Of a stretch of DNA of 55,452 nt, positions 18,484 to 54,360 are shown one piece after another. This stretch comes from a virus (Duplodnaviria; Caudoviricetes). The notes beneath the pieces are model-generated. The model did not search any database. It was not told the DNA's origin and was given only the letters and a program-made list of their open reading frames with translations. The stretch is taken from positions 1 to 55,452 of the IMG/VR virus record IMGVR_UViG_3300036859_000051; one strand, written 5' to 3'. The stretch's first letter is position 1. Each line of letters starts with the position of its first letter. The translations under genes and the position numbers were made by a program.

Positions 18484-18856
18484 GACGCTTTGCCCAACCT
18501 ATCGTGTCCAAACGCTCGCATACCGTACCAATCCCGCGTCGACTGTGTATCATTTGACCGCGATCAATCACCAACGCCACATGTGATTGAAACCGGCTAA
18601 CGCTAAACAACGACACGTCACCAACCATCGGCTTAGTGGTTTCGATCCACTGTTGTTTTTCCGTGTCAACAACCGCGTTCAATTCAGCGAATGAGACACC
18701 CGGAACATAATCGTCGGACAACGTTGAAATCGTGGCGTCGAATAACTCACGATACGCGACAAACACCAAACCCCAACAATCCCAACCATCCCAATCGCGA
18801 CCGCATTCGAGGAACGGAACATCGATAGCTTTCGCGATGAATTCCTTTAACTGCAA
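18449..18856 (-). CDS. NlpC/P60 tail protein
   Basis: GRDWDGWDCWGLV, HVALV, MIHS. Confidence 0.9.
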   Translation of the reverse strand: MQLKEFIAKAIDVPFLECGRDWDGWDCWGLVFVAYRELFDATISTLSDDYVPGVSFAELNAVVDTEKQQWIETTKPMVGDVSLFSVSRFQSHVALVIDRGQMIHSRRGIGTVCERLDTIGWAKRHAGYFRHKSRC

Positions 18857-25851: not shown

Positions 25852-26364
25852 ATGCGCAGTCTAGTAACCTGTTACCTCGCTATGTCGAGCATCGCTTTTG
25901 CTGCGGCCGAAAAGGCTAGCGGCGCCGCCAAGGCTCCCAACGCGCCCACGCCGATCAACACGCCCGCCGCCAATGCTTCGGCTCCCAATGCTTCGGCTCC
26001 GGCCGCACCGACGAACACCGTTGTTACGAAAATCCGTGCCGACGTTCCGTTGCCGCCCAAGAAATCAGGCGGTCGCGGCGGTCAGACGATCTACGATTTC
26101 GACAAGCTGGAAATCGGGCAGTCGTTCGGCGTCGTCGGCAAGACGATCAAGGGCATGGCGTCGACCGTTTCGAGCGCCAACAAGCGTTTCACCGAGGAAG
26201 TCAAGGATGCCGAGGGCAACGTCGTCATGATTGACGATCCCAAGAAGCCCGGCACCAAGAAGGCGGTCACCAAGCAGACCCGCAAGTTCATCTGTGGTAC
26301 GGTCACGCCGACCGAAGATGATCCGGCGACCGTTCGTGTTTGGCGCGTTCCGCTCGATTACTAA
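25852..26364 (+). CDS. Small basic putative DNA-binding protein with N-terminal leader (island 1)
   Basis: VPLP...GRG...YDFDKLEIGQSF, STVSSANKR, VRVWR; strongly biased codons; own terminator. Confidence 0.75.
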   Translation: MRSLVTCYLAMSSIAFAAAEKASGAAKAPNAPTPINTPAANASAPNASAPAAPTNTVVTKIRADVPLPPKKSGGRGGQTIYDFDKLEIGQSFGVVGKTIKGMASTVSSANKRFTEEVKDAEGNVVMIDDPKKPGTKKAVTKQTRKFICGTVTPTEDDPATVRVWRVPLDY

Positions 26365-27968: not shown

Positions 27969-28424
27969 TTAAAGACCGATTATCAGTCGAATGAGTTGAG
28001 CAAGTAACGCACGCGCCCAAAAAAACAGCGCGACCAACGTTCCGAACGTGACGACACCCGTTCCCAAAATCGCATAGAAGATATTACGCATGATTTTGAC
28101 CGTTTCTAACAAAGGTGTCGCTTCGTTCTTAAACTCGACACTTGCGGCGATTAACGGCAGATGCGTTTCTCGGAAATCACTTTCGAAGCGATGAAAATTC
28201 TTTGCGACACCATTCGCCACGTCACGAACTTGGGCAATGGTCGCAGTGGTCACTTTTAATTCACCGCCCATTTCCCCAAGTGTTTTGGTTGTTTCTAATT
28301 GGACGCGAACCGCTTCGTCTAATTTGTCGTGAATTACTCTGCGACTGGCTTCCGCATGTCGTGTTTCAGCCGAGAGTGCACCGAGTTCACGCATTATATC
28401 GTTATTTGAAACAAGCTCAGTCAT
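27969..28424 (-). CDS. Coiled-coil protein with C-terminal TM helix
   Basis: IFYAILGTGVVTFGTLVALFFW; coupled to the upstream gene. Confidence 0.7.
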   Translation of the reverse strand: MTELVSNNDIMRELGALSAETRHAEASRRVIHDKLDEAVRVQLETTKTLGEMGGELKVTTATIAQVRDVANGVAKNFHRFESDFRETHLPLIAASVEFKNEATPLLETVKIMRNIFYAILGTGVVTFGTLVALFFWARALLAQLIRLIIGL

Positions 28425-28792
28425 TATGTTTTAGCCTGATCAATGACGCGTTGCGCTTCTTCGTCTTTTTCCATTTGACGCCCGGCTTGCAAACCCGACG
28501 CGTGAGACGTATGAGCCGTTTCAATACCCGCTGCCGTCGCGTCCACGGTCGCACGCTCGGCAAGTTTCGTTTCGGCTTGCGCTAAATTGCGTTGCGCTTC
28601 GATGCGTTCCAACATTCCATCGGTTTTAATGTCTAACGCGGCTTGACCTTCAATTAACTTGTCTTGTCCTTTGCGAAGCTTACGACCGTTTAGAACATTC
28701 AAAATCATTGCAATCGCGGTGACGATAACACCTACCGGTGTCAGAACTTGCCCAATCGCGCTCAACAAAGAGATAATCGACGGAATGTTCAT
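28424..28792 (-). CDS. N-terminal TM + coiled-coil protein
   Basis: Hydrophobic first ~35 aa, then RKLRK and heptads. Confidence 0.7.
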   Translation of the reverse strand: MNIPSIISLLSAIGQVLTPVGVIVTAIAMILNVLNGRKLRKGQDKLIEGQAALDIKTDGMLERIEAQRNLAQAETKLAERATVDATAAGIETAHTSHASGLQAGRQMEKDEEAQRVIDQAKT

Positions 28793-28830
28793 GCACAAAG
28801 CATAGGCAATGCTTCGGTCTATAAGTCAAC

Positions 28831-29538: not shown

Positions 29539-29784
29539 ATGTTCCTCAAACTTCACAAGCGAAACGGATACGGTTCCGAGAGTGCCAAGGGCACGCCTGT
29601 TTTGGTCGAAACGACGAATATAATTCGCGTAACTCCAATCAACACCGGCGGTTCGATTATCCTATGGATTGGCGACGAGACTTTGGAAGTTTACGAAAGT
29701 CTCGATACGATTTTTAACGCGTCCGGCGACGAACTCGAAAACCTCATTCAAGGTGAAATCGGATCGGTGAACCGCGATGGCTAA
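29539..29784 (+). CDS. Hypothetical protein (island 2)
   Basis: SD AAGGGA; V.ES...I motif. Confidence 0.75.
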   Translation: MFLKLHKRNGYGSESAKGTPVLVETTNIIRVTPINTGGSIILWIGDETLEVYESLDTIFNASGDELENLIQGEIGSVNRDG

Positions 29785-30040
29785 AGAACGCTTCAATATC
29801 ACCTTGTTGTCGGCATTCAACAATCGTCGCAGCCTTGGCGAAGCAACCAAAGCGCCGACCGATCCGGACGATCCGGCGCCCGATCTAACCTTGATCGTCG
29901 CGGCGAACCTCGCTTACAATGAACACCCGCGCAAGTTGTGGCGTGAATACTCATACGAACAACAAGCGATGTATATCAGCAACGCAACGTTTTTGATCGT
30001 CAACATTCTGCGTTGGACGCGCGAATACGGTTACAACTGA
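29777..30040 (+). CDS. Hypothetical protein (island 2)
   Basis: Overlap-coupled ORF. Confidence 0.7.
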   Translation: MAKERFNITLLSAFNNRRSLGEATKAPTDPDDPAPDLTLIVAANLAYNEHPRKLWREYSYEQQAMYISNATFLIVNILRWTREYGYN

Positions 30041-30286: not shown

Positions 30287-31531
30287 TTAGCCAAGCAACA
30301 GCGCGATATGCTCACGCTTCGTCGCTTCAACGCCCCAAGCCGCCGCGACTTCATACCGAACCTTGCGGTATCCGGCATAAACGCGAACTTCGAACACCAA
30401 GCCGGAGCGCGGATCGACAAGCATCATGCTGTCAATTGCCGCGTCACCACCGCTCGGAAGGGCGGGCGGGCGGATGGCGAGTTGCATCGCATTCGGAGTG
30501 AACGCAACGTTCGCGTCGTAGCTGTTACCAACGGTGATTGCCGTGGTTGACGCAGGGATCGCGACACGCAAACCGGGTTCGGCAATCACGATGTTGCCGC
30601 CGTTCGAAACATCGGCGTCACCAGTGACCACAACGTATTTATTGGTATCACCAGCGAATGTGATCACGTCGCCCGCAACAATCGTTCCCGTACCGGCCGA
30701 TGCGAGCGCGATGGTCGTCGCACCAACAGCGAAACCAGCGTTTGTGGTCGTTGCCGACGCGCCGGTTCCCTTGGTATGGTGAACCGCCTGCGCGCTTTCC
30801 TTGATGTTGATACCGGAAAGGTTGATCAACGTGCCATCCGTCAAGGTCATTGACGTTCCGGCTTCGTTGGCTTTGGTCAACTGCGTCAGTGAACGCAGAT
30901 TGGCGCCCATCGACGTATTGCCGACCAACTGCCGCCCCGTACCCGGAGCGCCGTTGTCATCAAGGATTTTGCGGACCTGTGCGGCGTCGCCAACGCCGGG
31001 TGTCGCGCCGAACGGTGCGGTTCCGGCGATACCATAGGCACGCGACGCGTTTGCCGCAGCTTCGACGGCCAAATCACTTTCGATTTCGTTGACGATCCCG
31101 CGCAACGCTTGGGCAAACATGTCCGCCTGAACGGACAATGCGCCGGGACCGTTGGCGTTCAGTCCCTTTTCTTCCTCGCCGACGAAACCGAATTCGTAAG
31201 CGCGCGACTTGCTGATGGTCATTGTCCCATAGTCAACCGTCTGATCGGTTGGTTCGGGGATCGCCATCGCAGGCGTGATGTTGACGCCGTTCGCGGCGCG
31301 GGTCTTGTGATATTTGACCGCCTGCCCAACCGCCGCACGCTCGGCACCCGAGTTACGCGAAACGGAAGGGATGAAGCCGACAAGTTCACGAGACACCACG
31401 TCAAGACCAGCGTACAGATCGGGGATTAGCCCGGTCAACGTGTTGGCGTGGAAGGCGATGGGTTCGACGGCAAGCGCCGAAGTGGAAAGCGCCGCGAGCG
31501 TGATCGCGGCAAGTAGAGTGTGCGAGCGCAT
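30287..31531 (-). CDS. Major capsid protein (P22-coat-like) with N-terminal leader
   Basis: ANTLTGLIPDLY..LDVVSRELVGFIP, DP.SGL.FEV..Y, AAWGV; SD GGGG before ATG 31531; biased codons; own terminator. Confidence 0.9.
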   Translation of the reverse strand: MRSHTLLAAITLAALSTSALAVEPIAFHANTLTGLIPDLYAGLDVVSRELVGFIPSVSRNSGAERAAVGQAVKYHKTRAANGVNITPAMAIPEPTDQTVDYGTMTISKSRAYEFGFVGEEEKGLNANGPGALSVQADMFAQALRGIVNEIESDLAVEAAANASRAYGIAGTAPFGATPGVGDAAQVRKILDDNGAPGTGRQLVGNTSMGANLRSLTQLTKANEAGTSMTLTDGTLINLSGINIKESAQAVHHTKGTGASATTTNAGFAVGATTIALASAGTGTIVAGDVITFAGDTNKYVVVTGDADVSNGGNIVIAEPGLRVAIPASTTAITVGNSYDANVAFTPNAMQLAIRPPALPSGGDAAIDSMMLVDPRSGLVFEVRVYAGYRKVRYEVAAAWGVEATKREHIALLLG

Positions 31532-31616
31532 GGATAGCCCCATTTGAATGGATTGATGATTGCGGCATCCACCGCGAGCGCCGCAGATCATCCGATCAAT
31601 GCGGCTCCAAAAGATG

Positions 31617-31666
31617 CTAACATGTTAGTTGTTATTCGCGAGATTATGTCAAGCAATCTCGCGAAA
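31617..31666 (-). promoter_or_regulatory. Putative capsid promoter/operator
   Basis: TTGACA (31647-31652) inside an 11-bp inverted repeat; palindrome CTAACATGTTAG at 31617-31628. Confidence 0.55.
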
Positions 31667-31672
31667 AAATTG

Positions 31673-32611
31673 TTAACTCGCGAAGGCGAGCGCGGACCAA
31701 GTTGGTTGCGCTTTGGTGCCCACATTCATGTAAAGCACCTTACCAGTGATATCGGTATAGCGCGAACCCGGCCCGGCGAACCCTTCACCGGTCGCGACGG
31801 GATCACCATCGGTGTAATTGACCGGCGCACCCGATCCGAGAAGTTCGCAAACATCACCAACCGAGAAGCGCAATTCAGCCTTGTCAACGGTGAATGGTTC
31901 GCCATCGTCGGTGTAATGCGGCGAACCATCGTCTTTCAAATCCAAACCGTAATCAACACCCGATCCGGCATTGTTGTTGAGCATCCGGACGCCGAACGCA
32001 GACTTCGCGCGCGTGACGGATGATGGATCATCGCCATCGATCACAGCGGCAACGATGGCATCGGCACCAACCGATCCGTCCATGATAATTCCCATCAACG
32101 CGGCAGTCGGATAATCCGACGCGTGCGCAACGACGGAATACGCGCCGACCATACCGCCTAGATAGTTGCCTTCACCGGCAATTGCGTCACCCATGATGTT
32201 GCCCATCATCGGCGCAAGAAACTTTGGATCGGTGCCGTCGTTGGAACCTGCATCATCGGCAACGGTCAAATCGGCGGCAATGACCTGATAGCTTTCGCCG
32301 GTTCCATCATACTCAACTGCTTGTTCGCTCGATGCTGCAACAGCTTCGGAGCTTGTTGGAAAATCAACAGCCGCCTCGCTCCAATCGACCGATCCGTTTT
32401 CAACGACAATGTCAAACCGCTGACGCGATGAATATGGTCCGAACGTGGCGGTTTCACCGGCCGCGATACTTGTCGGGCGACCGGGTTCCTCACCCGATCC
32501 GGAACCGAGTGCCCACACCTTTGCAGCGGACACAGCGGCGGCAACAACGGTCAACTGCCGCGTTGCCTCCAATGTAACGACTTCATGCGAATTCTGTCGG
32601 ATTGTGGTCAT
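31673..32611 (-). CDS. Acidic putative head decoration/fibre protein
   Basis: Between scaffold and capsid genes; FGPY motif; GS.YTD.T...LY.N.GT...PTW tail; SD AAGGGG. Confidence 0.6.
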   Translation of the reverse strand: MTTIRQNSHEVVTLEATRQLTVVAAAVSAAKVWALGSGSGEEPGRPTSIAAGETATFGPYSSRQRFDIVVENGSVDWSEAAVDFPTSSEAVAASSEQAVEYDGTGESYQVIAADLTVADDAGSNDGTDPKFLAPMMGNIMGDAIAGEGNYLGGMVGAYSVVAHASDYPTAALMGIIMDGSVGADAIVAAVIDGDDPSSVTRAKSAFGVRMLNNNAGSGVDYGLDLKDDGSPHYTDDGEPFTVDKAELRFSVGDVCELLGSGAPVNYTDGDPVATGEGFAGPGSRYTDITGKVLYMNVGTKAQPTWSALAFAS

Positions 32612-32675
32612 GGGCCGCCCCTTTTGATGATCCATCCGGGTTAAGCGCTTCGTTTGAAAAAGTCAAACAAAGCTG

Positions 32676-32704
32676 TTGACAACCTATCGCGTCGACCGTA
32701 TATA
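32676..32704 (+). promoter_or_regulatory. sigma70-type early promoter (repeat family)
   Basis: TTGACA-17-TATATA with CGCGTCGACCG. Confidence 0.85.
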
Positions 32705-32731
32705 AAACGCATTGAAAACGGAGCCTCCGCC

Positions 32732-33013
32732 ATGAGCATCAAACCAACAATCATCTGGAAAAAGAAAAACGGACCGGGTCATTTCGCCGTTCTCGGGACG
32801 ATCCGCGTCGGCGCAACCGAACGATCCATTACCAAAGGGCATCTTTGGACGTGTTCCGTTATTTTGCCCGGTATCGCGATTGGTGGAGCTTATCGATATC
32901 ACACCAACGAAACGGACGCGCAAAAGATCGTTGAACTTGCGATCAACAAATGGTTCGCCGCAATCGAGCCGTCGCTCACCGTTATCAAAGAAGCGGAAGA
33001 AGCCGATGACTAA
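32732..33013 (+). CDS. Hypothetical protein (island 3)
   Basis: SD GGAG after promoter. Confidence 0.75.
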   Translation: MSIKPTIIWKKKNGPGHFAVLGTIRVGATERSITKGHLWTCSVILPGIAIGGAYRYHTNETDAQKIVELAINKWFAAIEPSLTVIKEAEEADD

Positions 33014-33203
33014 AAGCTACGAACAAGCGTTTCTCGAAAGTCTCGCGTCCGAATATCAAGAGGACGCCGCGCAAGCATATCGTGAATTCGAAATCATAAG
33101 AGAACGGCAACCATATCGAACGCGCCAACTAATCACGTATCAACAGATCACGCGCTATCGGTATGCCGAAGCAAGAAAGACATTATGGAAATGTCTAGGA
33201 TGA
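33006..33203 (+). CDS. Hypothetical protein (island 3)
   Basis: Overlap-coupled ORF. Confidence 0.7.
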   Translation: MTKSYEQAFLESLASEYQEDAAQAYREFEIIRERQPYRTRQLITYQQITRYRYAEARKTLWKCLG

Positions 33204-33529
33204 TTAAACCCACCTTCGCGATGTTCGTTGAATATTGCGAACAACGAAAACTACCCACGTCCGAATGGGTGTTTGAACCCGGCATCCGTATTTACGTCCG
33301 CAAGGGTTGGCGTCCGCGACATGGCGATTATGTTCTAGCGAACATGGAAGCGACGACACCCGGCAAAGGTGCGTTGACCAAATTTCTCGATACATGGGAA
33401 CCTAAATACCAATTCAGTGTCGAGCAAATTCTAAACGAACGCTTGATCCCTTATTTCGAGCGTCGCGGCTACGTTTACGAAAGCGGCAAGTTCCCCGGCT
33501 CACTTTGTATGATCGGCCCGAAATCATGA
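33200..33529 (+). CDS. Small GNAT-fold-like protein (island 3)
   Basis: LANME...PGKG.LT..L and N.RL..YFERRGY resemble GNAT motifs A and B. Confidence 0.5.
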   Translation: MIKPTFAMFVEYCEQRKLPTSEWVFEPGIRIYVRKGWRPRHGDYVLANMEATTPGKGALTKFLDTWEPKYQFSVEQILNERLIPYFERRGYVYESGKFPGSLCMIGPKS

Positions 33530-33807
33530 ACCCCGATGCGCGATATCATTGGATCGAAGAATATTTAAGAAATCGATCACACAACGATTTTGTTGATGTT
33601 CTAAATCGCGACTTCGTTGACGATTACGCGCGAGCGACAGGCGTCCCGTTAATGGTGCAAATGTATGGCGCCGCGAAATGCCCAACACTCGGGCGTGACC
33701 TAGCACACATGGCGAAAAATAATCGCCTGCGTCGTTCGCGTAGCGGTATCGAAGGAATGGCGGGAATGGGGTTTCCGCGTTGGGTTTGGATTTACAGATT
33801 ACCATGA
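33526..33807 (+). CDS. Hypothetical protein, possible winged helix (island 3)
   Basis: ATGA overlap; L..M....L.R...W...Y.L ending. Confidence 0.65.
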   Translation: MNPDARYHWIEEYLRNRSHNDFVDVLNRDFVDDYARATGVPLMVQMYGAAKCPTLGRDLAHMAKNNRLRRSRSGIEGMAGMGFPRWVWIYRLP

Positions 33808-34025
33808 TGACCGGTTTCGCTGTTGTCGACATGCTCACTCGTCGCGTAATCATCGAATGCTTCACACTCGAAACGCTCGATCTGATCATGGCAGGTCGCA
33901 ATGCACAGTTCATCGCGATCATGACGGACGCCACGGTTTATAATCCGCCACTGAGTTTCAATGAAATCTTCATCGGTGTTAATTGGTTGAAGAATTTTCG
34001 GGTCTTGACAGATCGACCGCGTTGA
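33804..34025 (+). CDS. Hypothetical protein (island 3)
   Basis: ATGA overlap. Confidence 0.55.
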   Translation: MMTGFAVVDMLTRRVIIECFTLETLDLIMAGRNAQFIAIMTDATVYNPPLSFNEIFIGVNWLKNFRVLTDRPR

Positions 34026-34033
34026 GATATAAT
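34005..34033 (+). promoter_or_regulatory. Perfect-consensus sigma70 promoter (repeat family)
   Basis: TTGACA-17-TATAAT; spacer contains ATCGACCGCGT. Confidence 0.9.
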
Positions 34034-34064
34034 CAGCGCGTCGAATTGGAAAGGAACCACGAGA

Positions 34065-34337
34065 ATGTCAATCACAATCGTTCAGGGTAAACCGGCGAAG
34101 TCGCACAATGGCGAAGCGTACTCAACGCGTCGCATGGGAAAAGTAATCCCGCTTATTGATCGCACTTGGAACGAACTCACCAAAGCGCAACAAAGCAGCG
34201 TTTTATTCGGCGATGGTTGTGGGCATCCGAGCAACCGTCCTAAGTCGAGCGCACAAGCTCGCAAATGGATTTACACGGTACGCACCGATACCGGCACAAT
34301 CTACGGTCACAATCCGGGTTGGGGGTTCGCACTATGA
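34065..34337 (+). CDS. Hypothetical protein (island 3)
   Basis: SD AAGGA after promoter. Confidence 0.75.
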   Translation: MSITIVQGKPAKSHNGEAYSTRRMGKVIPLIDRTWNELTKAQQSSVLFGDGCGHPSNRPKSSAQARKWIYTVRTDTGTIYGHNPGWGFAL

Positions 34338-34579
34338 GACTAATCCGCATTCCAAAAGTTTTCTACAACGATCACGTTGCGCGCGATCTTCCGGCGCCAC
34401 CTATCGAACGCAAAACCCGTCGTCATTACTACATCGATTGCGATCATCCTCATATTGGTGAATTGGAGGATGACGCGGTCCATTACTCGGACGCAACGAC
34501 TTGGGGAAACGGAATAGAGCAAGGCGGGATCGAACGTTCCGCCCGCGCTACACTAAACGCGATCCGTGAGGCGGGTTGA
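34334..34579 (+). CDS. Hypothetical protein (island 3)
   Basis: SD GGGGG, ATGA overlap. Confidence 0.7.
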   Translation: MRLIRIPKVFYNDHVARDLPAPPIERKTRRHYYIDCDHPHIGELEDDAVHYSDATTWGNGIEQGGIERSARATLNAIREAG

Positions 34580-34679
34580 TGCGCTCCCGCCGATCATTCG
34601 CAATTCGTTGGGGATTATGCCGAAGCGACATGCTCGCATGGGCGGTTCGCGGTCGACAAACTTTTCGTTGAAATAGCTG

Positions 34680-34741
34680 TTGACAATCGACCGCGTCGAC
34701 CGTATATAACAATCATTGACGCGGCAATCCCGCCGCGTCAA
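34680..34741 (+). promoter_or_regulatory. sigma70-type early promoter plus leader stem-loop
   Basis: TTGACA-17-TATATA; 10-bp stem TTGACGCGGC/GCCGCGTCAA at 34716-34741. Confidence 0.85.
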
Positions 34742-34758
34742 AACCGGAGGGTCCGCCC

Positions 34759-34932
34759 ATGTTCGCAGTCCGTTTCGTCATCGTTGCCGTTTCCACCGAC
34801 GGTTCGGAGCTTGAATTGTTCCGTTGGACGCGTGACGCAACGTCGGGCATCGAACGCGCCAAGCGCGAAGGCGTTCAGTTTTTCGGCGAAGCATGGCTAG
34901 CCAGTGTAACCATCATCGCGCGGGAGGTATGA
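34759..34932 (+). CDS. 57-aa hypothetical protein (below the ORF-track cutoff)
   Basis: SD GGAGG; MFAVRFVIVAVSTDG...IIAREV; follows promoter. Confidence 0.75.
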   Translation: MFAVRFVIVAVSTDGSELELFRWTRDATSGIERAKREGVQFFGEAWLASVTIIAREV

Positions 34933-34936
34933 GCGG

Positions 34937-35245
34937 ATGCAACTTAATTGGCTCACCATTTGCCCGTCGAATTCCCGCGAACATTTGGTTCGCGGGACCG
35001 AACTAGAAATGGCATTTGTGCCGGGCACTGCGTCACGTCTTGCGATCTACACCGTTCGCACATACGACCGCGACGGTTACGACGTGCGGTATCGTGTCCG
35101 CGATGCTGGCAGGATTTCGGACGCCGACGTTCGCGCGGGTAAGCGCCCGCCCATCATCGGCGAATTTGCCACGATGGATGAATTAGAAATCGCGATTGAA
35201 AACACGCGCAAAGCGCATCCAGAAGCTTTTCAATTTCCCGATTGA
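34937..35245 (+). CDS. Hypothetical protein (island 3)
   Basis: SD GGAGG. Confidence 0.75.
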   Translation: MQLNWLTICPSNSREHLVRGTELEMAFVPGTASRLAIYTVRTYDRDGYDVRYRVRDAGRISDADVRAGKRPPIIGEFATMDELEIAIENTRKAHPEAFQFPD

Positions 35246-35270
35246 CAATCGACCGCGTCGACCGTATATA
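35242..35270 (+). promoter_or_regulatory. sigma70-type early promoter (repeat family)
   Basis: 29 bp identical to 34680-34708. Confidence 0.85.
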
Positions 35271-35297
35271 TCGGGTATCAACAACGGAGTAAATGAA

Positions 35298-35612
35298 ATG
35301 TCCATCGGTTTTCGCGCTTACTTCTTTGATACCAACGGGGTTGAATTGTCCAAGCATCCGCTGAATGGCATGACGTGGTGTCAGACTTTTGGCTCACCCA
35401 AGATCAATGGTACGTTCTGCCATACGCGCCGGACGGGCGTTCGGATCGCGCGTTACGCGGATTTGAAGGGAACCAAAGGTGAAGTCACCTTAACTCCGGC
35501 CAACGTTCGCGAATACTTCGGCAACGTTGAACGTGTCGGTGTCAAAGTTTGGTACAGCCCGGAAAGCTCCGAAAAGTTCTGGATTTACGCTGATCCGGAA
35601 ACCAAGGCATAA
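35298..35612 (+). CDS. Hypothetical protein (island 3)
   Basis: SD GGAG after promoter. Confidence 0.75.
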   Translation: MSIGFRAYFFDTNGVELSKHPLNGMTWCQTFGSPKINGTFCHTRRTGVRIARYADLKGTKGEVTLTPANVREYFGNVERVGVKVWYSPESSEKFWIYADPETKA

Positions 35613-35667
35613 ACCAATCCTCCGCGAGCCGGGGCGCGTCGTCCCCGGCAGAAAGGTTCACTCCAAC

Positions 35668-36156
35668 ATGAGATACAACGATCAATCAACCGACGTGACA
35701 CGTTGGACGACGACCAAGCTCTTTCGTCGGCTTCGCGAGACTGCCAATCTCACCACGTTTGGCGTAGATCAGAACGAAATCGCCGCGACTTACAAAGTCG
35801 GCTGGCACGATCAAGTCAACAAGGATCAACCACGCATTGACGATTTCATTCGCGAACAAACCCGCGTTTATCGGCAGTCATGGCTTGATCCGATCATTGA
35901 CGAACTTGAACGTCGCTTTGGAGCGTCACCGGCAACCGTGTTGACCACACAGGTTCGCATCATTGCTTTGACCGGTGAGCGCCTTCCGAACGGTGAATAC
36001 AGTGCAAGGTTTTTCGTTCGAGGGATGAAAGGTGACACCCCTTACAATGCATTTGGACCGGGCGTTGAATTCGACACTCACGAAGCCGCCGAAGCTGCGA
36101 TCATAACTCACAACAAAGAAATGCCTGAACGTCAATTGGATTTGGTGAAGCCATGA
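35668..36156 (+). CDS. Hypothetical protein (island 3)
   Basis: SD AAAGG after hairpin 35628-35649. Confidence 0.75.
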   Translation: MRYNDQSTDVTRWTTTKLFRRLRETANLTTFGVDQNEIAATYKVGWHDQVNKDQPRIDDFIREQTRVYRQSWLDPIIDELERRFGASPATVLTTQVRIIALTGERLPNGEYSARFFVRGMKGDTPYNAFGPGVEFDTHEAAEAAIITHNKEMPERQLDLVKP

Positions 36157-36359
36157 CTGACCCTGCCAACAAACCACCACCGAACAATGCCGGACGCCGA
36201 CAAGTCGATACAATCGACTTTACACCGAAGTGGCGAAGCATCCTACCAATGTTGTTGGTCACATTGCGTGATGGCACGCCAGAAGGTCAACGGATGGCAA
36301 CGGAAGAACTAGAGCGGATGGCCGATGCTGCCGACGCTCATTTGAAGGCAACCAAATAA
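36153..36359 (+). CDS. Hypothetical protein (island 3)
   Basis: ATGA overlap; TID.TP.W..IL...EL.RMA..AD. Confidence 0.7.
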   Translation: MTDPANKPPPNNAGRRQVDTIDFTPKWRSILPMLLVTLRDGTPEGQRMATEELERMADAADAHLKATK

Positions 36360-36433: not shown

Positions 36434-37291
36434 TCAATCCTCGATAGTCGCTTTGCCTTGTGACATTTCCGAAGCGATCTTCGCGCGCTCCGGCGAATTC
36501 AGCGGCAAGGCGTCGAATTCGGCCCGCTTCATTACCCGCTTACCGCCCGGTCCAACACCGCCCTTGCCATCGTTGCCCGAGCCAGAATTGTTGGCGCCCT
36601 TCAAGACGGCATTCTTGTTCGGATACTCGTTGACGATGATTTCCATCGCTTCATCGAACGTCGCGACTTCCCCGGCACGCTGCGTTGAATAGAGCGGCCC
36701 GGAACCATCCGCCTTCATCGCAACGACACGATCATTTTCGATCTTGAAGCGATTGCCGAACGTCGCTTGAGCGATATCAGACGGGATGGTCAATTTCTCG
36801 GTGATGAATTTCGATCCGCCGAACGCCGACGCGACTAGGACGCCGTGAAGCTTGCTTTCGTATGTGTCGCCACGCTTCGTTGCATCAGCGAGCTTTGTTT
36901 CATACGACTTGGCGACTTCCGCGCGAACTTCGTCAACCTTGCCCGCGTCAATGAGCGTCTTGTCTTTCAGCTTGCCGACCGTAGCAATCGCTTCCGCCGC
37001 TGCCTTAGCGTCGGTAACGCCCGCGTCGGTGAATTCCTTAACCTTGGCTTCGGCCGTCTCGGCACGCTGCCTATGGCCCATCGCTTCGCCGTTGAGACGC
37101 GTAATCGTGTCACCTGCAACAGTCTGCTCGACACCGGCCGCCGTGATCCATATCGGATTGCCGTCCTTCGTTTCAAACTTCCCGTCAGCGTCGGTTTTCC
37201 ATTTGCCCTTGTCACCGTCGAAAAACCCGACACGAGAAATACGCATCGAACGCCCGATCCATGCGAGCGGAACCCCTTTGAACGTAATCAT
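36434..37291 (-). CDS. Capsid scaffolding protein (DUF6651-like)
   Basis: DG.P, I.RLNGEA..HR, LIDAG.V, F..SKFI..K, A.FDEA, GSG; follows the portal; SD GAGGT. Confidence 0.85.
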   Translation of the reverse strand: MITFKGVPLAWIGRSMRISRVGFFDGDKGKWKTDADGKFETKDGNPIWITAAGVEQTVAGDTITRLNGEAMGHRQRAETAEAKVKEFTDAGVTDAKAAAEAIATVGKLKDKTLIDAGKVDEVRAEVAKSYETKLADATKRGDTYESKLHGVLVASAFGGSKFITEKLTIPSDIAQATFGNRFKIENDRVVAMKADGSGPLYSTQRAGEVATFDEAMEIIVNEYPNKNAVLKGANNSGSGNDGKGGVGPGGKRVMKRAEFDALPLNSPERAKIASEMSQGKATIED

Positions 37292-37338: not shown

Positions 37339-38910
37339 TCACGCCCCGGCATTCGGCAGAACAGGCGGAACCACCTGCTTAATGGGAAGCCCGGTTATTG
37401 GATCAACCTCCCCTTCATCTTCGGTCGGACCTTCGTCCAAAATTGCTTGTTCTTCATCGTCCGGATCAAAATCCGGTGAGAGGATATCCCGACGCTTTAG
37501 TTCCTTCCAAAGCGTCCGCTGCGACAAATCACCGGCCGCCCGAGCATCTTTCAGCGCCGTGACAGCAACCGCGCCGTTGTCACCGTCAACATCGAAATCG
37601 GTGAATACCTTCGTATTGATCTTTTCAACCATTTCGTCGCGCGGCAGACCGTACCACATGGCCGTAAGGATCAACGCGTTATCAAGCGCATCCTCCAAAC
37701 CAAATGCCCACATTTGGACAGCGGAATTTCCCTTCTTTCCGGCAACCGCAGCCGTGATGACCGTGATGTTCCCCGATTGCGCGGTGAGCGGATTGCGCCC
37801 TAGCTCGCGAAGCTGGTTGATTGTCTTTTCAACATCGCTTTGGAGGAACGTTAGCGACTGTGCGGACGGTTCGATCAACTCCCATGATCCGACATTGCCG
37901 TTGCCATCGGTAGGCGCGTAAAGGACGCGCATCGGCCCGACGTTGACCGGCTTGGTTGTTCCATCCGGGTTCTTATCGGGTTTGACACCGTTGCCCGTAA
38001 GCATCGGATAAGCGGTAAGCGTTTTGATCCATTTCAATCCGCTTTCCTGCAAATACAATTCGATTTGCAAATCCGCTGCGTCTCGCATTGGCGGATGAAC
38101 GAACCAAGTGCGACCATTGCGACGACCCGTCACAAACGCCACCATCGGAATTACACCGATGGTGAAAACACCTTGATCGATCTGATACCAAATGGTTGGT
38201 TGACCGACACCGGTCGGAAGCTTGCTTTTGTCTTGCTCCCATAGCTCCCAACGGGCGCCTAATTCGTCTCGGATCATGATCCGAATATGGTTGGGATCGC
38301 CCGGTTCCATGATCCGCATGTAAGTCAATTCTTCGTTCCCGGCAATCACGGCGGATTGCGCTTCAAGAACGTTGATTGCTTTGACATGCGACCAAAACGG
38401 CCGAATACCGGATTTCCGTTCTTCCTCTATCGAGCGCGGCGCGGTCGACACTGGAACTTTCGGATAGTCAACGAAAATCCAATCGATAGCGTCGTTGATC
38501 CCGTTGAAAAACGTCGCAGCGGCAAACACGGTGAGATTGTTGTTCGCGCCATCAACGTTGCCGATGAAGTCGGTCAACTGTTCAGGCAACGTGCCTAATG
38601 TCTCGTCTGTCGCGACTTCATTTTCGAAAGGTTTCGATGCGAGCCCTTCAACAACATCACGATAAATGTTGGTGAATTTGGTGAGCGACAAACGGAATTT
38701 GTATTCCGTATCCGGTTCGTTGGGAAATTTCGGCAGATATTTTTCGCCCGCGTCGCGGATCGCTTTGGCGCCACGAACGATGGTGTCAACTTGCTCCCAA
38801 TACGGGCACATAGCGGCATGATCTACAGACGATTTGTCTAGGTTCTCACGCTGCGTCGCGGACAGTGCCGTTTCGCCATCGAAGAACGCGACCCGCTCAA
38901 TTCGCGCCAT
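37339..38910 (-). CDS. Portal protein (DUF4055-like)
   Basis: YLPKFP.E....Y..RL....F.N, PP..D.A.L; follows TerL. Confidence 0.9.
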   Translation of the reverse strand: MARIERVAFFDGETALSATQRENLDKSSVDHAAMCPYWEQVDTIVRGAKAIRDAGEKYLPKFPNEPDTEYKFRLSLTKFTNIYRDVVEGLASKPFENEVATDETLGTLPEQLTDFIGNVDGANNNLTVFAAATFFNGINDAIDWIFVDYPKVPVSTAPRSIEEERKSGIRPFWSHVKAINVLEAQSAVIAGNEELTYMRIMEPGDPNHIRIMIRDELGARWELWEQDKSKLPTGVGQPTIWYQIDQGVFTIGVIPMVAFVTGRRNGRTWFVHPPMRDAADLQIELYLQESGLKWIKTLTAYPMLTGNGVKPDKNPDGTTKPVNVGPMRVLYAPTDGNGNVGSWELIEPSAQSLTFLQSDVEKTINQLRELGRNPLTAQSGNITVITAAVAGKKGNSAVQMWAFGLEDALDNALILTAMWYGLPRDEMVEKINTKVFTDFDVDGDNGAVAVTALKDARAAGDLSQRTLWKELKRRDILSPDFDPDDEEQAILDEGPTEDEGEVDPITGLPIKQVVPPVLPNAGA

Positions 38911-52254: not shown

Positions 52255-53914
52255 GTTGCGCGATCCAATTCATAATCTGCGCTCGCAACGTATCCATATC
52301 GAGCTTTGGCAATCCAAGCGCGGACGCCACGTCGACACCGCCCGTCGCATGATAGAAGCGTCGATATAACTCACTGTCGGTTTGACCAACCGCGCGACCA
52401 TGACCAGCCCATAAAGCGATAGCGTTGGCAAGAGATTGACGCGCCGCGATCCGCTCATGTGCCTTGCCCGCTTGGAACTTGCCGAGCCCATCCGAATTTG
52501 TCGCGGCTGCCACCTTGGCCCATATTTCTTCCGGTGTCTCGATGATCGATGCGCTACGAAGCTTGGCAAGCGTTTCAGCATCAAGCAACGTCAGATCGCC
52601 GTCAACCAACTTAATATCGCGACCGCCGCCCATAGGAACCGGCATATACCCACAGTATGGGCATTTGTGCTTTGTTGCTTCGTATTGCTTGACGCACTTG
52701 ACGCACGTTTTTAGCGGCATGTCGTCCGGATCAAACTCACGTTTCGCCCGACGCTCACGATTGGCAAGTGACCAAACACGTGGTTTATCCGGATAGCCGA
52801 ACCGATGCGAATTGCCGACGTGATCGATTACCAATCCCGCGCGTTTACCCGGCATTGGTCGCAACACGCGTCCGAACTGTTGCAGGTAAACGCCTAATGA
52901 CGCGGTTGGTCGCGCCATGCTAACCACATATAGACCGGGTAAATCGAACCCCTCACCGAACAAATCGACGTTCACGAGTTGCCAGAGTTGCCCGGCTCTA
53001 AAACGACGGACGTATTCGGATCGCAGGGCATCCGGTGTCTTGCCGGTGACGACAACAGCGGGAATGCCGTACTGTTGAAATTTGATGGCAATTTCGGTTG
53101 CCGTGTCAACGTCGGTCGCGAAGGTAATTCCTGACTTGCCATATGCGAACCGAATGTAATGCTCGACAACGTCACCGACGATATGAGAGTTTTGCGACGC
53201 CTCGCGCAATTGCTTTGGTGAGAAATCGCCACTGTCGGTGATCTTCAACGCTGCAACATCAAGATCACTTTCGGGTTGCGCTATCTCATATTCGGATAGT
53301 GCCCCCATGTTGATCAAATCACGCGTTGACGGGCCAATGACCATCTTTCCGAACACGCCCGATCCGCCGTTCGCTTTGTCACCGATCCCGTTGCCGTCCG
53401 CTCGATTAGGTGTCGCGGTCACACCGAGGCCGAACGCGTTGGGGAACATCGAAACGACGTAACCCCATTTGTTATTTGTCAAGACGTGGTGCGCTTCATC
53501 TATCGTCCATCGCTTGACTTGCTTTGCCCAATCGGCTAACGCGTCATGCCGGGATTTGAGCGTATCCACGCCCGCGACGGCGGTCGACGCCGTAGGATCA
53601 ACGAAAGAGCGCCCGAACTCGCGACGATGCTCCGCAGCGATGAAACCGATCACGTCTTTTGGTGCTATGATGCGATGGAACACGCCGAACCGCGCGACGT
53701 GTAATGACATTTGCGATACCAACTCTTGCCGGTGAGCTATGACGACGTTTTGTCCCGGTGTGGTCGCATCGTCCGCCGCATGTTGACCGACAATGACACT
53801 CTTGCCGCCACCTGTAGGAACCACGTCGACCACATGTCGAATACCCGATTGCCAAGCAGCATAATTCGCCGCGTGAACTTCGCGTTGATAGGGGCGAAGC
53901 TCCGGACGCGTCAT
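52244..53914 (-). CDS. SF2 DEAH helicase with C-terminal zinc finger
   Basis: LRPYQ, PTGGGKS, DEAHH, TATP, EGFD.P, QQFGRVLR, CVKC..CPYC. Confidence 0.92.
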   Translation of the reverse strand: MTRPELRPYQREVHAANYAAWQSGIRHVVDVVPTGGGKSVIVGQHAADDATTPGQNVVIAHRQELVSQMSLHVARFGVFHRIIAPKDVIGFIAAEHRREFGRSFVDPTASTAVAGVDTLKSRHDALADWAKQVKRWTIDEAHHVLTNNKWGYVVSMFPNAFGLGVTATPNRADGNGIGDKANGGSGVFGKMVIGPSTRDLINMGALSEYEIAQPESDLDVAALKITDSGDFSPKQLREASQNSHIVGDVVEHYIRFAYGKSGITFATDVDTATEIAIKFQQYGIPAVVVTGKTPDALRSEYVRRFRAGQLWQLVNVDLFGEGFDLPGLYVVSMARPTASLGVYLQQFGRVLRPMPGKRAGLVIDHVGNSHRFGYPDKPRVWSLANRERRAKREFDPDDMPLKTCVKCVKQYEATKHKCPYCGYMPVPMGGGRDIKLVDGDLTLLDAETLAKLRSASIIETPEEIWAKVAAATNSDGLGKFQAGKAHERIAARQSLANAIALWAGHGRAVGQTDSELYRRFYHATGGVDVASALGLPKLDMDTLRAQIMNWIAQREN

Positions 53915-54360
53915 TTCTTCCGCTTCATGCTCAACGGTACGATCACACCGACCGTGTAAAAGCCATTCGTGGCGGGTCCGATGATCCCGGTGTTGTCTGC
54001 GCTCGGATCGGCGACGACTTCACCGTTCAACACGATAACCGCGTGGTTATTGCCGCGTCGCGACAAACCACATAGTACGATATACGTGTCTCGATACATG
54101 AACTTAATGCTTTCGAGCATCCAACGAACAGTTGGAACCGCCTTGCCATTAAAATGCGTTTCGGACCAAGCCAAACCGCGCAAGGCTAAAAAAGTGTCGA
54201 CCGCCGTCCAACTCGCTTGAATATCACGATTTCCAGTTTCAAAAAAATGCGGAACATCGGTAATCGGTAAATCAAGTAGCGACGCCATCACCGCACGAAA
54301 ACAATCCCCATACGTTCCGTTTGCCGGATCATGTGCGACGGTTGTTTTGATTGGCGTCAT
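53911..54360 (-). CDS. Putative papain/C39-like cysteine peptidase
   Basis: GDC..A..ASLL, NHAVIV, V.DP (possible Cys-His-Asp triad). Confidence 0.5.
   Translation of the reverse strand: MTPIKTTVAHDPANGTYGDCFRAVMASLLDLPITDVPHFFETGNRDIQASWTAVDTFLALRGLAWSETHFNGKAVPTVRWMLESIKFMYRDTYIVLCGLSRRGNNHAVIVLNGEVVADPSADNTGIIGPATNGFYTVGVIVPLSMKRKK

What the first reader, a model, noticed from the sequence alone, without database searches (positions are those of the whole stretch)
31445..31531. Major capsid protein carries a 28-aa signal-peptide-like leader ending IAFH before ANTL
Seen: MRSHTLLAAITLAALSTSALA-VEPIAFH precedes ANTLTGLIP. There is no ATG between 31531 and ANTL, and an SD lies before 31531. 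The leader has a basic/hydrophobic/A-x-A layout like a Sec signal, and its IAFH-A end resembles the VAFF-D and VGFF-D motifs of portal and scaffold. Inference: the family core probably starts at ANTL (recalled, needs checking), so the leader would be removed. It could be the same processing tag, or it could tether assembly to the membrane.
Basis: partly seen in the sequence, partly recalled or inferred. Interest (0 to 1): 0.75.

Follow-up and report, generated by a model that had tools for sequence, protein, structure and literature searches.

The report
Shared leader tag on virion proteins
This uncultured phage's capsid protein really does start with a 28-residue signal-peptide-like leader, but the leader is one copy of a portable tag that the phage group also puts on scaffold, portal and tail-tube proteins, probably a removable assembly tag whose cutting enzyme is unknown.

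Summary
The capsid gene (30287-31531, minus strand) opens with 28 codons that lie outside the family core. The core starts exactly at ANTL (PHROG 283; a P22-type coat fold).

The leader is no oddity of this genome. Of 120 sequences (the window's own protein and its 119 nearest cluster representatives), 117 carry a basic, acid-free, hydrophobic leader. It usually ends in small residue, Ala, then Tyr/Phe/His just before ANTLT.

In the same clade, leaders with like ends sit on four other unrelated proteins:
- the scaffold
- the portal
- a DUF7303 protein
- the major tail protein (in relatives, not in this window)

Neck and adaptor proteins have none. Leader ends are more alike within a genome than between genomes.

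Many leaders are too short or too polar to be Sec signals, and these proteins must stay in the cytoplasm. I therefore read the leader as a removable assembly tag, most like the staphylococcal 80alpha/Prp leaders, and not as an export signal.

- Prp and an extended L27 are absent from the phage and from five Rhizobiales genomes.
- No head protease was found.
- A conserved papain-like gene (53911-54360) is only a weak candidate.

Cleavage itself is untested. Unchecked earlier notes of this scan describe similar leader systems on other DNA.

The parts
31448..31531 (-). Capsid leader: 28 codons (Met1-His28). It has a basic start, 17 uncharged hydrophobic residues, ALA, then VEPIAFH.
   Evidence: sequence; outside the PHROG 283 core; 117 of 120 sequences carry a leader; start codon and SD; AF2: pLDDT about 50, helix 5-16, not packed on the core.
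30287..31447 (-). Major capsid protein core, a P22-type coat, starting at ANTLT.
   Evidence: PHROG 283, E 4e-91; model, mean pLDDT 84.4; Foldseek: P22 procapsid coat 8i1v, E 1e-15, TM 0.58-0.62; also Sf6 and CUS-3.
38881..38910 (-). Portal leader, 10 codons (MARIERVAFF), followed by DGE.
   Evidence: P106B and X2_24 portals carry leaders that end TAF and AAY. By my reading, 7 of 16 informative clade loci have a portal leader.
37220..37291 (-). Scaffold leader, up to 24 codons ending RVGFF before DGDKGKW. The start is either the ATG at 37291 (AAAGGTG 8 nt upstream) or the ATG at 37246 (Met16).
   Evidence: (DUF6651, PHROG 784/206 from residue 30). Scaffold leaders occur in 19 of 20 informative short-leader loci and in 0 of 25 other loci.
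25852..25899 (+). Leader (16 codons, MRSLVTCYLAMSSIAF) of the DUF7303 protein gene 25852..26364.
   Evidence: (PF23978, E 1.9e-18). Homologues carry an aromatic-ended leader in 6 of 12 genomes.
29777..29818 (+). Possible fifth tag: 14 codons (MAKERFNITLLSAF, then NN) at the start of an 87-aa ORF of unknown function.
   Evidence: pattern scan. No family and no homologue in related loci. Uncertain.
53911..54360 (-). Papain-fold-like 149-aa protein with invariant Cys20, His106 and Asp/Asn118. A weak candidate for the leader peptidase.
   Evidence: PHROG 5845, unknown function; Atlas structural neighbours C39_2, C39, C10 and Gln_amidase, TM 0.55-0.61; conserved triad; distribution. Against.

Best explanation
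The 28 residues are the capsid's copy of a portable N-terminal tag. This phage lineage (kin of the Rhizobium phages P106B and RHph_X2_24, genus Rigallicvirus) fuses the tag to its main building blocks: capsid, scaffold, portal, a DUF7303 protein and, in most relatives, the tail tube.

The tag has three parts:
- Met plus one to three basic residues
- an acid-free hydrophobic or amphipathic stretch of variable length
- a recognisable end: small residue, Ala/Gly, Tyr/Phe/His, followed by Ala/Asp/Asn and Asn/Gly/Pro

I infer that one factor reads this end and that the tag is clipped after (or next to) the aromatic residue. That would give a mature capsid starting ANTL (or HANTL), the same N-terminus that leaderless relatives get by Met removal. 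Before removal the tag may hold the subunits on a chaperone or on the membrane and so control assembly, as proposed for the 80alpha leaders.

Shown: the tag exists, is translated, is clade-wide, sits on non-homologous virion proteins, and its end co-varies within genomes.

Inferred: cleavage, its exact site, and the enzyme. The enzyme could be a host protease or an unrecognised phage one. The papain-like gene at 53911-54360 is a weak candidate, about 0.1-0.15.
For: 1. Clade-wide feature. 117 of 120 sequences (the window's own and its 119 nearest cluster representatives) have a leader. The residue before ANTLT is Tyr/His/Phe in 88 of 117, and 21 more have an aromatic two residues earlier. The residue before that is Ala in 86 of 117. 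Of 104 leaders of at most 32 residues, 97 have net charge +1 to +3 and 94 have no acidic residue.

2. One origin. On a quick ML tree of 70 capsid cores the short-leader rows form one group of 23 (22 with a leader plus L066, which has lost it; SH-aLRT 99).

3. The start is real. All 22 short-leader rows tested have an ATG 13-28 codons upstream with anti-SD pairing of -3.2 to -7.1 kcal/mol, and none has a start codon at the junction.

4. The same kind of leader sits on other proteins.
- Scaffold: 19 of 20 informative clade loci against 0 of 25 others.
- Major tail protein: 13 of 16 clade rows. P106B_28 aligns to the window's tail protein from its residue 13 (53% identity, E 7e-52).
- Portal: 7 of 16.
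- DUF7303: 6 of 12.
- Adaptor, head-closure, MuF, Neck1, tail-terminator and chaperone proteins: none.

5. Leader ends of different proteins are more alike within a genome. Identity at P5-P2 is 0.48 against a null of 0.24, reached by 0 of 5000 shuffles.

6. Not generally Sec-competent. Only 38 of 112 leaders have a 10-residue Kyte-Doolittle window of 2.0 or more. Some are 10-13 residues long or have Arg/Glu mid-leader.

7. The AF2 model leaves residues 1-29 as a low-confidence appendage (pLDDT about 50) on a confident core.

8. Precedent. The 80alpha capsid and scaffold leaders (13 and 14 residues) are cut between Phe and Ala by host Prp. The same motif occurs on the tail protein of phi13 (PMC5744158, passages read).
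Against: - No cleavage data exist for any member.
- No protease was identified. The six-frame genome search found no Prp (PF04327), S26, S78 or C39. Pfam and PHROG scans of about 50 ORFs found no head protease.
- Five Rhizobiales genomes have no Prp over the cut-off, and their L27 starts without an extension. The known mechanism therefore cannot simply be transferred.
- The papain-like candidate lies in the replication arm. Two phages that carry it have no tags (Me-ZS1 and MW202621.1).
- The window's own capsid leader is far more hydrophobic than a mere recognition tag needs.
- Junction positions and the table behind one search were curated by eye.
- Gene-caller starts of metagenomic proteins are uncertain.
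Confidence: 0.5

Rival explanations
1. It is a working Sec-type signal peptide. The capsid precursor is targeted to SecYEG and cut by host signal peptidase I after Ala21 (ALA, then VEP), or after an A-x-A that includes the aromatic residue in relatives.
For: - The window leader has a basic n-region, 17 uncharged residues and ALA. Its Kyte-Doolittle window of 2.62 is among the top five of 112.
- Many relatives end A-Y-A, A-F-A or A-H-A if the Ala of ANTL or ANSN is counted.
- Elsewhere in the family, long leaders look like canonical signals.
Against: - Capsid, scaffold, portal and tail tube must meet terminase, DNA and ATP in the cytoplasm (established knowledge).
- 74 of 112 leaders fall below a Kyte-Doolittle window of 2.0.
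- Tags of 10-13 residues (MARIERVAFF here; tail-tube tags of L015 and L018) cannot span a membrane.
- Where Asp, Asn or Glu follows the aromatic residue there is no A-x-A after it.
- A conserved aromatic residue and genome-specific leader ends are not signal-peptidase requirements.
- No SignalP run was possible.
Confidence: 0.12
2. The leader is not removed. It is a retained N-terminal helix that helps folding or assembly, for instance by bundling with the like helices of scaffold and portal, by binding a chaperone, or by binding the membrane surface. It stays in the particle.
For: - No protease was found (and the family scans).
- A helix is predicted for residues 5-16.
- Within-genome similarity of leader ends also fits mutual recognition.
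- In 80alpha the scaffold leader is needed but its cleavage is not (PMC5744158).
Against: - Members of the clade that lack the capsid leader exist (L066, P0097, P0105, P0113), so the core assembles without it.
- The tag also sits on the tail tube, which never meets the scaffold.
- Hundreds of hydrophobic N-termini at the P22-type N-arm, which faces the procapsid interior (recalled), would be an unusual load.
- The conserved junction looks like a site rather than a packing surface.
Confidence: 0.25
3. It is an artefact. Translation really starts near ANTL at a non-canonical codon, and the upstream open frame is untranslated.
For: A TTG codon encodes Leu32. Pfam gives no N-terminal boundary.
Against: - There is no SD before the junction (+0.1 kcal/mol), while the ATG at 31531 has one (-4.7).
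- The frame is open, with a Met at a matching distance, in 117 of 120 sequences.
- A peptide-level motif is conserved (Pro, then Ile, His and Ala-Tyr at fixed spacing).
- ANTLT is kept through synonymous codon changes in P106B, X2_24 and the window.
Confidence: 0.03

Closest known systems
N-terminal leaders of Staphylococcus phage 80alpha capsid and scaffold proteins, cut by the host protease Prp (which also trims ribosomal protein L27)
   Same: Short N-terminal leaders are shared by non-homologous virion proteins: capsid and scaffold, and a tail protein in a related phage. The junction is an aromatic residue followed by Ala. There is no phage head protease. The capsid leader appears dispensable, since it has been lost in some clade members (PMC5744158).
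   Different: - The hosts are alphaproteobacteria. Five of five Rhizobiales genomes lack Prp over the cut-off and have an unextended L27.
- The phage has no Prp.
- The leaders are longer, basic and hydrophobic, and often look like Sec signals.
- The portal is tagged too.
- Cleavage has not been shown.
Sec-type signal peptides cut by signal peptidase I
   Same: An n-region, h-region and c-region layout, with small residues near the end. The window leader would probably be called a signal peptide by eye.
   Different: The cargo is cytoplasmic virion proteins. Many family leaders are too short or too polar. An aromatic residue is conserved at the end, and leader ends co-vary within genomes.
Phage T4 capsid-targeting sequences and gp21 prohead-protease sites; the HK97 delta domain (recalled, no call)
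   Same: One cleavage or targeting motif is shared by capsid, scaffold and internal proteins.
   Different: No prohead protease gene was found. The tail tube is tagged in relatives, which a head-loading signal does not explain. The coat is P22-type, with a separate scaffold.
Phage P22, Sf6 and CUS-3 coat proteins
   Same: They are the best structural matches to the core (8i1v, E 1e-15, TM about 0.6). A separate scaffold gene is also present.
   Different: As far as I recall, P22-type coats are not proteolytically processed and carry no leader. Here a leader precedes the N-arm.
C39 double-glycine leader peptidases of bacteriocin exporters (for the candidate gene 53911-54360)
   Same: A small papain-like fold by Atlas structure neighbours (TM 0.59-0.61). 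Cys, His and Asp/Asn fall in the matching order and are invariant or nearly so.
   Different: There is no HMM match to PF03412, even at E 10, and no PDB sequence match with a 100-sequence profile. The leaders have no Gly-Gly. The gene lies in the replication module and also occurs in phages without tags.

Membership tests
P22-type major capsid protein (PHROG 283) | Full-length profile match | tested here: met
   E 4e-91, residues 29-414 against profile positions 2-383 of 385.
P22-type major capsid protein (PHROG 283) | HK97-like fold with the P22-type insertion domain | tested here: met
   AF2 model with mean pLDDT 84.4. Foldseek finds P22 procapsid coat 8i1v at E 1e-15, TM 0.58-0.62.
Sec signal peptide (signal peptidase I type) | Basic n-region, an h-region of about 10 or more hydrophobic residues, small residues at -3 and -1 | tested here: met
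   For the window leader: MRSH, 17 uncharged residues, ALA then V, and a Kyte-Doolittle window of 2.62. This was a home-made measure; SignalP was not available.
Sec signal peptide (signal peptidase I type) | The property is kept across orthologous leaders | tested here: not met
   Only 38 of 112 leaders reach a Kyte-Doolittle window of 2.0. Some have Arg mid-leader, and some tags are 10-13 residues long.
Sec signal peptide (signal peptidase I type) | The cargo works outside the cytoplasm | not testable with these tools
   Established knowledge says tailed-phage heads and tails assemble in the cytoplasm. No localisation data exist.
80alpha/Prp-type virion protein leader | One short N-terminal leader shared by the capsid, the scaffold and other virion proteins | tested here: met
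80alpha/Prp-type virion protein leader | The host has Prp (PF04327) and an L27 that carries the same leader | tested here: not met
   None of 5 Rhizobiales genomes is over the cut-off for PF04327. L27 starts MAHKKAGG in all 5. These genomes stand in for the unknown host.
80alpha/Prp-type virion protein leader | The leader is cleaved at the aromatic/Ala junction | not testable with these tools
   This needs virion N-terminal sequencing or mass spectrometry.
T4/HK97-type prohead-protease maturation | A prohead protease gene in the head module | tested here: not met
   No S78 in the six-frame search. No protease PHROG or Pfam family on the head-module ORFs.
C39-like leader peptidase (gene 53911-54360) | Papain-like fold with a Cys/His/Asp triad | tested here: inconclusive
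   Atlas structural neighbours at TM 0.55-0.61. Cys20 and His106 are invariant and Asp/Asn118 is conserved in 16 sequences. No HMM or PDB sequence match.
C39-like leader peptidase (gene 53911-54360) | It occurs with tagged substrates and not without them | tested here: not met
   Present in 8 of 8 informative complete clade genomes and in 0 of 5 leaderless relatives. But also present in Me-ZS1 and MW202621.1, which show no tags, and in only 1 of 4 long-leader genomes.

The most novel reading that the evidence does not exclude
The hydrophobic or amphipathic tags are true membrane-parking signals. Coat, scaffold, portal and tail-tube precursors would be held at the inner membrane and become competent for assembly only when the tag is clipped. 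That would be a membrane-gated assembly switch in a tailed phage.

The evidence does not exclude this.
- The tags are basic, acid-free and hydrophobic.
- On the quick tree, the same capsid family shows longer membrane-segment-like N-termini at four separate places, and in 5 of 43 informative bacterial-genome loci.
- Two of those forms (L096, L098) have two hydrophobic segments, which would leave the capsid domain in the cytoplasm.
Probability: 0.15. Interest if true: 0.85.

Novelty: new variant of a known kind. Interest (0 to 1): 0.62.

Why it matters
P22-type coats are the textbook case of capsids that mature without proteolysis. A whole clade of such phages tags the coat, scaffold, portal and tail tube with one removable-looking leader. 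At least 117 protein clusters at 90% identity carry it, and two cultured Rhizobium/Sinorhizobium phages are among them.

If the tag is clipped, a second, Gram-negative version of the 80alpha/Prp principle exists, with an unknown protease. That enzyme would be a handle on how phages time assembly, and perhaps on how host factors are recruited.

There is a practical side. Signal-peptide predictors would probably call these virion proteins secreted, which would mislead annotation. P106B and RHph_X2_24 make the question directly testable.

Tried and rejected
- Prp route. PF04327 is absent from the phage and below the cut-off in 5 Rhizobiales genomes. Their L27 is unextended. A direct Prp mechanism is rejected.
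- Phage signal peptidase, HK97-type protease and the C39 HMM: no six-frame match.
- Pfam and PHROG scans of about 50 window ORFs found no head protease. The only peptidase family was NlpC/P60, in the tail gene 18449-18856.
- Papain-like gene 53911-54360. I followed it as a leader-peptidase candidate. Its distribution fits the clade, but that is confounded by phylogeny. It lies beside replication genes. Me-ZS1 and MW202621.1 have it without tags. I demoted it to a weak candidate.
- Complex prediction of that protein with capsid residues 1-60 returned 'no answer' (score 0.00). This is no evidence either way.
- The first structure job was sent without an alignment and gave a useless model (pLDDT 38). 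The second job used alignment A1.
- Rfam search of the capsid 5' region: nothing.
- Literature. Searches found no report of leaders on these phages' virion proteins. The 'RHph' search returned only unrelated papers among the 10 listed. PMC3426561 and PMC5463345 (passages read) held nothing relevant. The original P106B paper is not in the library, and supplements are closed. Virion proteomics there could bear on cleavage.
- One search used an anchor one residue off, so its leader strings lack their last residue, and it dropped 5 of 120 sequences. One search corrected both.
- The tree is the quick version. The careful search did not finish. Sixteen of 86 rows were dropped because my anchor pattern missed them (L003-L005, L019, L023, L026, L034, L037, L043, L046, L054, L073, L081, L083-L085).
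Full report
**What is there.**
The window is a complete 55,452-bp virus record with direct terminal repeats. On the minus strand, ORF 30287..31531 encodes a 414-residue protein. It starts MRSHTLLAAITLAALSTSALAVEPIAFH and continues ANTLTGLIPDLY.

PHROG 283 ('major head protein') matches residues 29-414 to profile positions 2-383 of 385 (E 4e-91). Pfam has no model for it. An AlphaFold2 model built on 96 homologues (mean pLDDT 84.4) matches the P22 procapsid coat protein (8i1v, E 1e-15, TM 0.58-0.62), and also Sf6 and CUS-3. The core is therefore a P22-type coat that starts exactly at ANTL. Residues 1-28 are an add-on. In the model they have pLDDT of about 50, with a helix at 5-16 and coil up to the N-arm helix at 33-49.

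**The start codon.**
In-frame start codons upstream of the core lie 28, 32 and 48 codons before it, and none lies nearer. The ATG at 31531 has a partial SD (-4.7 kcal/mol against the anti-SD). The ANTL junction has none (+0.1).

The ATG 48 codons upstream sits inside a conserved non-coding element (see 'In passing'). In P106B the matching ATG is in another frame. The nearest homologues also begin at the Met that corresponds to 31531.

**The leader is a clade character.**
The closest isolates are Rhizobium phage vB_RglS_P106B (64.5% identity) and RHph_X2_24 (63%, host Sinorhizobium), both in genus Rigallicvirus. Their annotated capsid genes carry leaders of 22 and 25 residues that end ...SGAYAS and ...HLSAYAS before ANTLT.

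I examined 120 sequences: the window's own protein and its 119 nearest cluster representatives from the 5.8-billion-protein collection (62-81% identity).
- 117 have a leader and 3 start at the core.
- The last leader residue is Tyr (63), His (17) or Phe (8), so 88 of 117 are aromatic or His.
- A further 21 have the aromatic residue two positions earlier; 8 have neither.
- The residue before the last is Ala in 86 of 117.
- The first core residue is Ala (94), Asp (15) or Glu (6).
- Of the 104 leaders of at most 32 residues, 97 have net charge +1 to +3 and 94 have no acidic residue.

A motif recurs in which Pro is followed at fixed spacing by Ile, His and Ala-Tyr. More distant relatives start Met-core. 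These include HK639, CGphi29, DMCA, Me-ZS1, qsb1 and 54 of the 86 rows (85 loci plus the window) that I classified.

On a quick ML tree (70 of 86 rows; 16 dropped, see Tried and rejected) the short-leader rows form one group of 23 with SH-aLRT 99. It contains one secondary loss, L066. All 22 short-leader rows tested have an ATG with an SD 13-28 codons upstream and no start codon at the junction.

**It is one copy of a shared tag.**
In the window:
- The portal begins MARIERVAFF, then DGE.
- The scaffold has ...MRISRVGFF, then DGD. Its PHROG and Pfam match begins at residue 30.
- The DUF7303 protein (25852..26364, plus strand) begins MRSLVTCYLAMSSIAF, then AAA.

In P106B five proteins carry leaders that end Thr/Ser-Ala-Phe (Gly-Ala-Tyr in the capsid), followed by Ala or Asn and then Asn, Ser or Gly. 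They are the portal, scaffold, capsid, the DUF7303 homologue P106B_17 and P106B_28. P106B_28 is the major tail protein. It aligns to the window's tail protein (53% identity, E 7e-52) from its residue 13, whereas the window protein starts at its own residue 1.

Across the fetched loci (read by eye from the translations):

| Protein | Loci with a leader |
|---|---|
| Scaffold | 19 of 20 informative short-leader loci; 0 of 25 other loci |
| Major tail protein | 13 of 16 clade rows (not in the window) |
| Portal | 7 of 16 informative loci |
| DUF7303 | 6 of 12 genomes |
| Adaptor Ad1, head closure, MuF, Neck1, tail terminator, tail chaperone | none |

L066 keeps the scaffold leader although its capsid leader is lost.

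Leader ends of different proteins are more alike within a genome than between genomes. In a hand-curated table of 14 genomes, identity at P5-P2 is 0.48 against a shuffled mean of 0.24, reached by 0 of 5000 shuffles. That points to a common, genome- or host-specific reader of the leader end, or to exchange between leaders within a genome.

**Signal peptide or tag?**
The window's capsid leader alone would pass for a Sec signal. It has a basic start and 17 uncharged residues, and its best 10-residue Kyte-Doolittle window (2.62) is among the top five of 112. It also has ALA followed by V.

As a family property this fails.
- Only 38 of 112 leaders reach 2.0 (median 1.7).
- Many leaders have Arg in the middle (the type ...ILLARRAPMIGHLSAY).
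- Several tags have only 10-13 residues.
- Signal peptidase I does not require the conserved aromatic residue.
- Where Asp or Asn follows that residue there is no A-x-A after it.
- The tagged proteins must work in the cytoplasm.

I therefore rank true export low (0.12).

**Closest known system.**
The closest known system is 80alpha. Its capsid and scaffold lose 13 and 14 N-terminal residues to the host protease Prp, which cuts between Phe and Ala and also trims L27. Capsid cleavage is dispensable, the scaffold leader is required, and the same motif sits on the tail protein of phi13 (PMC5744158, passages read).

The same classes of protein are tagged here, and the junction is again an aromatic residue followed by Ala. 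The mechanism cannot be the same one. PF04327 is absent from the phage. In five Rhizobiales genomes it stays below the cut-off, and their L27 begins without an extension.

**The search for a protease.**
No S26, S78 or C39 HMM match turned up in six frames. Pfam and PHROG scans of about 50 ORFs found no head protease.

Among the genes shared with P106B, one stood out: 53911..54360, 149 residues, PHROG 5845 of unknown function. The points in its favour are these.
- The ESM Atlas model of this protein (pTM 0.90) has structural neighbours that are papain-fold peptidases: C39_2 (TM 0.59), C39 (0.61), C10 (0.56) and Gln_amidase (0.55).
- Cys20 and His106 are invariant, and Asp/Asn118-Pro119 is conserved, in 16 homologues.
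- The gene is present in 8 of 8 informative complete clade genomes. The ninth contig, G009, ends exactly beside that region.
- It is absent from all 5 leaderless relatives tested.

The points against it are stronger.
- The family is huge: 6,347 representative clusters at E up to 0.001.
- It has no Pfam or PDB sequence match, even with a 100-sequence profile.
- It sits next to helicase or polymerase genes, not in the head module.
- It occurs in 73 phage records of very different kinds.
- Both outgroup phages I checked carry it without any tags. They are Me-ZS1, which has a homologous capsid, and MW202621.1.
- Only 1 of 4 long-leader genomes has it.

I keep it as a weak candidate only. A complex prediction gave no verdict (see Tried and rejected).

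**Longer hydrophobic extensions elsewhere in the family.**
Eight leaderless-clade loci (L030, L036, L041, L044, L048, L051, L052, L057) have capsid N-terminal extensions of about 35-60 residues. These start with a canonical-looking signal or membrane segment, and the scaffolds in those loci are untagged. They fall at four places on the tree.

Five of 43 informative loci from bacterial genomes show similar extensions. Two of them, from Verrucomicrobia (L096, L098), have two hydrophobic segments. Under that reading the tags park precursors at the membrane and clipping releases them. A closed shell could not form with N-arms anchored outside it, so this reading still needs cleavage.

**Verdict.**

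My odds:
- a removable shared tag cut by an unidentified specific protease: 0.5
- a retained helix: 0.25
- Sec/signal peptidase: 0.12
- an artefact: 0.03

I found no paper that describes this.

Earlier unchecked notes of this scan describe the same portal/scaffold motif, the DUF7303 leader and the orphan peptidase on this window. They also describe a relative with tagged scaffold, capsid and tail tube, and leader-plus-small-cysteine-protease pairs in other phages. I treated these as leads, not as evidence.

**In passing.**
The capsid 5' leader RNA (31557..31603, minus strand) lies downstream of a TTGACA box. It holds two hairpins with invariant GGAU loops. In 16 aligned loci, 7 of the 9 predicted pairs show compensatory changes. 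It has no Rfam match.

Noticed in passing
window 31557-31603 (minus strand), with a TTGACA box near 31650: Two tandem hairpins with invariant GGAU loops lie in the 5' leader of the capsid mRNA, separated by GCGGCGC. They are conserved in 16 aligned clade loci, and 7 of the 9 predicted pairs show compensatory changes. There is no Rfam match. This may be an operator for a late regulator or a processing site.
   Followed up: partly
L030, L036, L041, L044, L048, L051, L052, L057 (viral contigs); L088, L096, L098, L110, L123 (bacterial genomes): upstream of the capsid core: In otherwise leaderless branches the capsid has an N-terminal extension of 35-60 residues with signal- or membrane-segment-like stretches. 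L096 and L098 have two such segments. The extensions fall at four places on the quick tree, yet several of them are alike in sequence. The scaffolds there are untagged.
   Followed up: partly
window 53911-54360 (minus strand): A small papain-fold-like protein with a conserved Cys/His/Asp set sits between replication genes. It belongs to a very large unannotated phage family (6,347 representative clusters) that also occurs in actinophages and jumbo phages. Its function is unknown.
   Followed up: partly
window 25852-26364 (plus strand): A DUF7303 protein is encoded antisense to the head genes. It has a tag-like leader, a Pro/Ala-rich linker and a basic C-terminal domain. Homologues in P106B and X2_24 are tagged too. 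Its role in the particle is unknown.
   Followed up: partly
window 29777-30040 (plus strand): An 87-aa ORF starts with a 14-residue tag-like peptide that ends SAF before NN. It has no family and no homologue in the related loci.
   Followed up: no
window 27969-28798 (minus strand): Two small ORFs lie between the capsid and adaptor genes, one with a C-terminal and one with an N-terminal hydrophobic segment. They have no homologues in the related loci (tblastn).
   Followed up: no
window 31673-32635 (minus strand): A 320-aa ORF lies directly upstream of the capsid gene. It has no Pfam or PHROG family and no counterpart in P106B.
   Followed up: no
window 32654-36359 (plus strand): About 3.7 kb of small plus-strand genes separates the scaffold gene from the capsid gene. 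P106B and X2_24 also have a few opposite-strand ORFs at this position.
   Followed up: no
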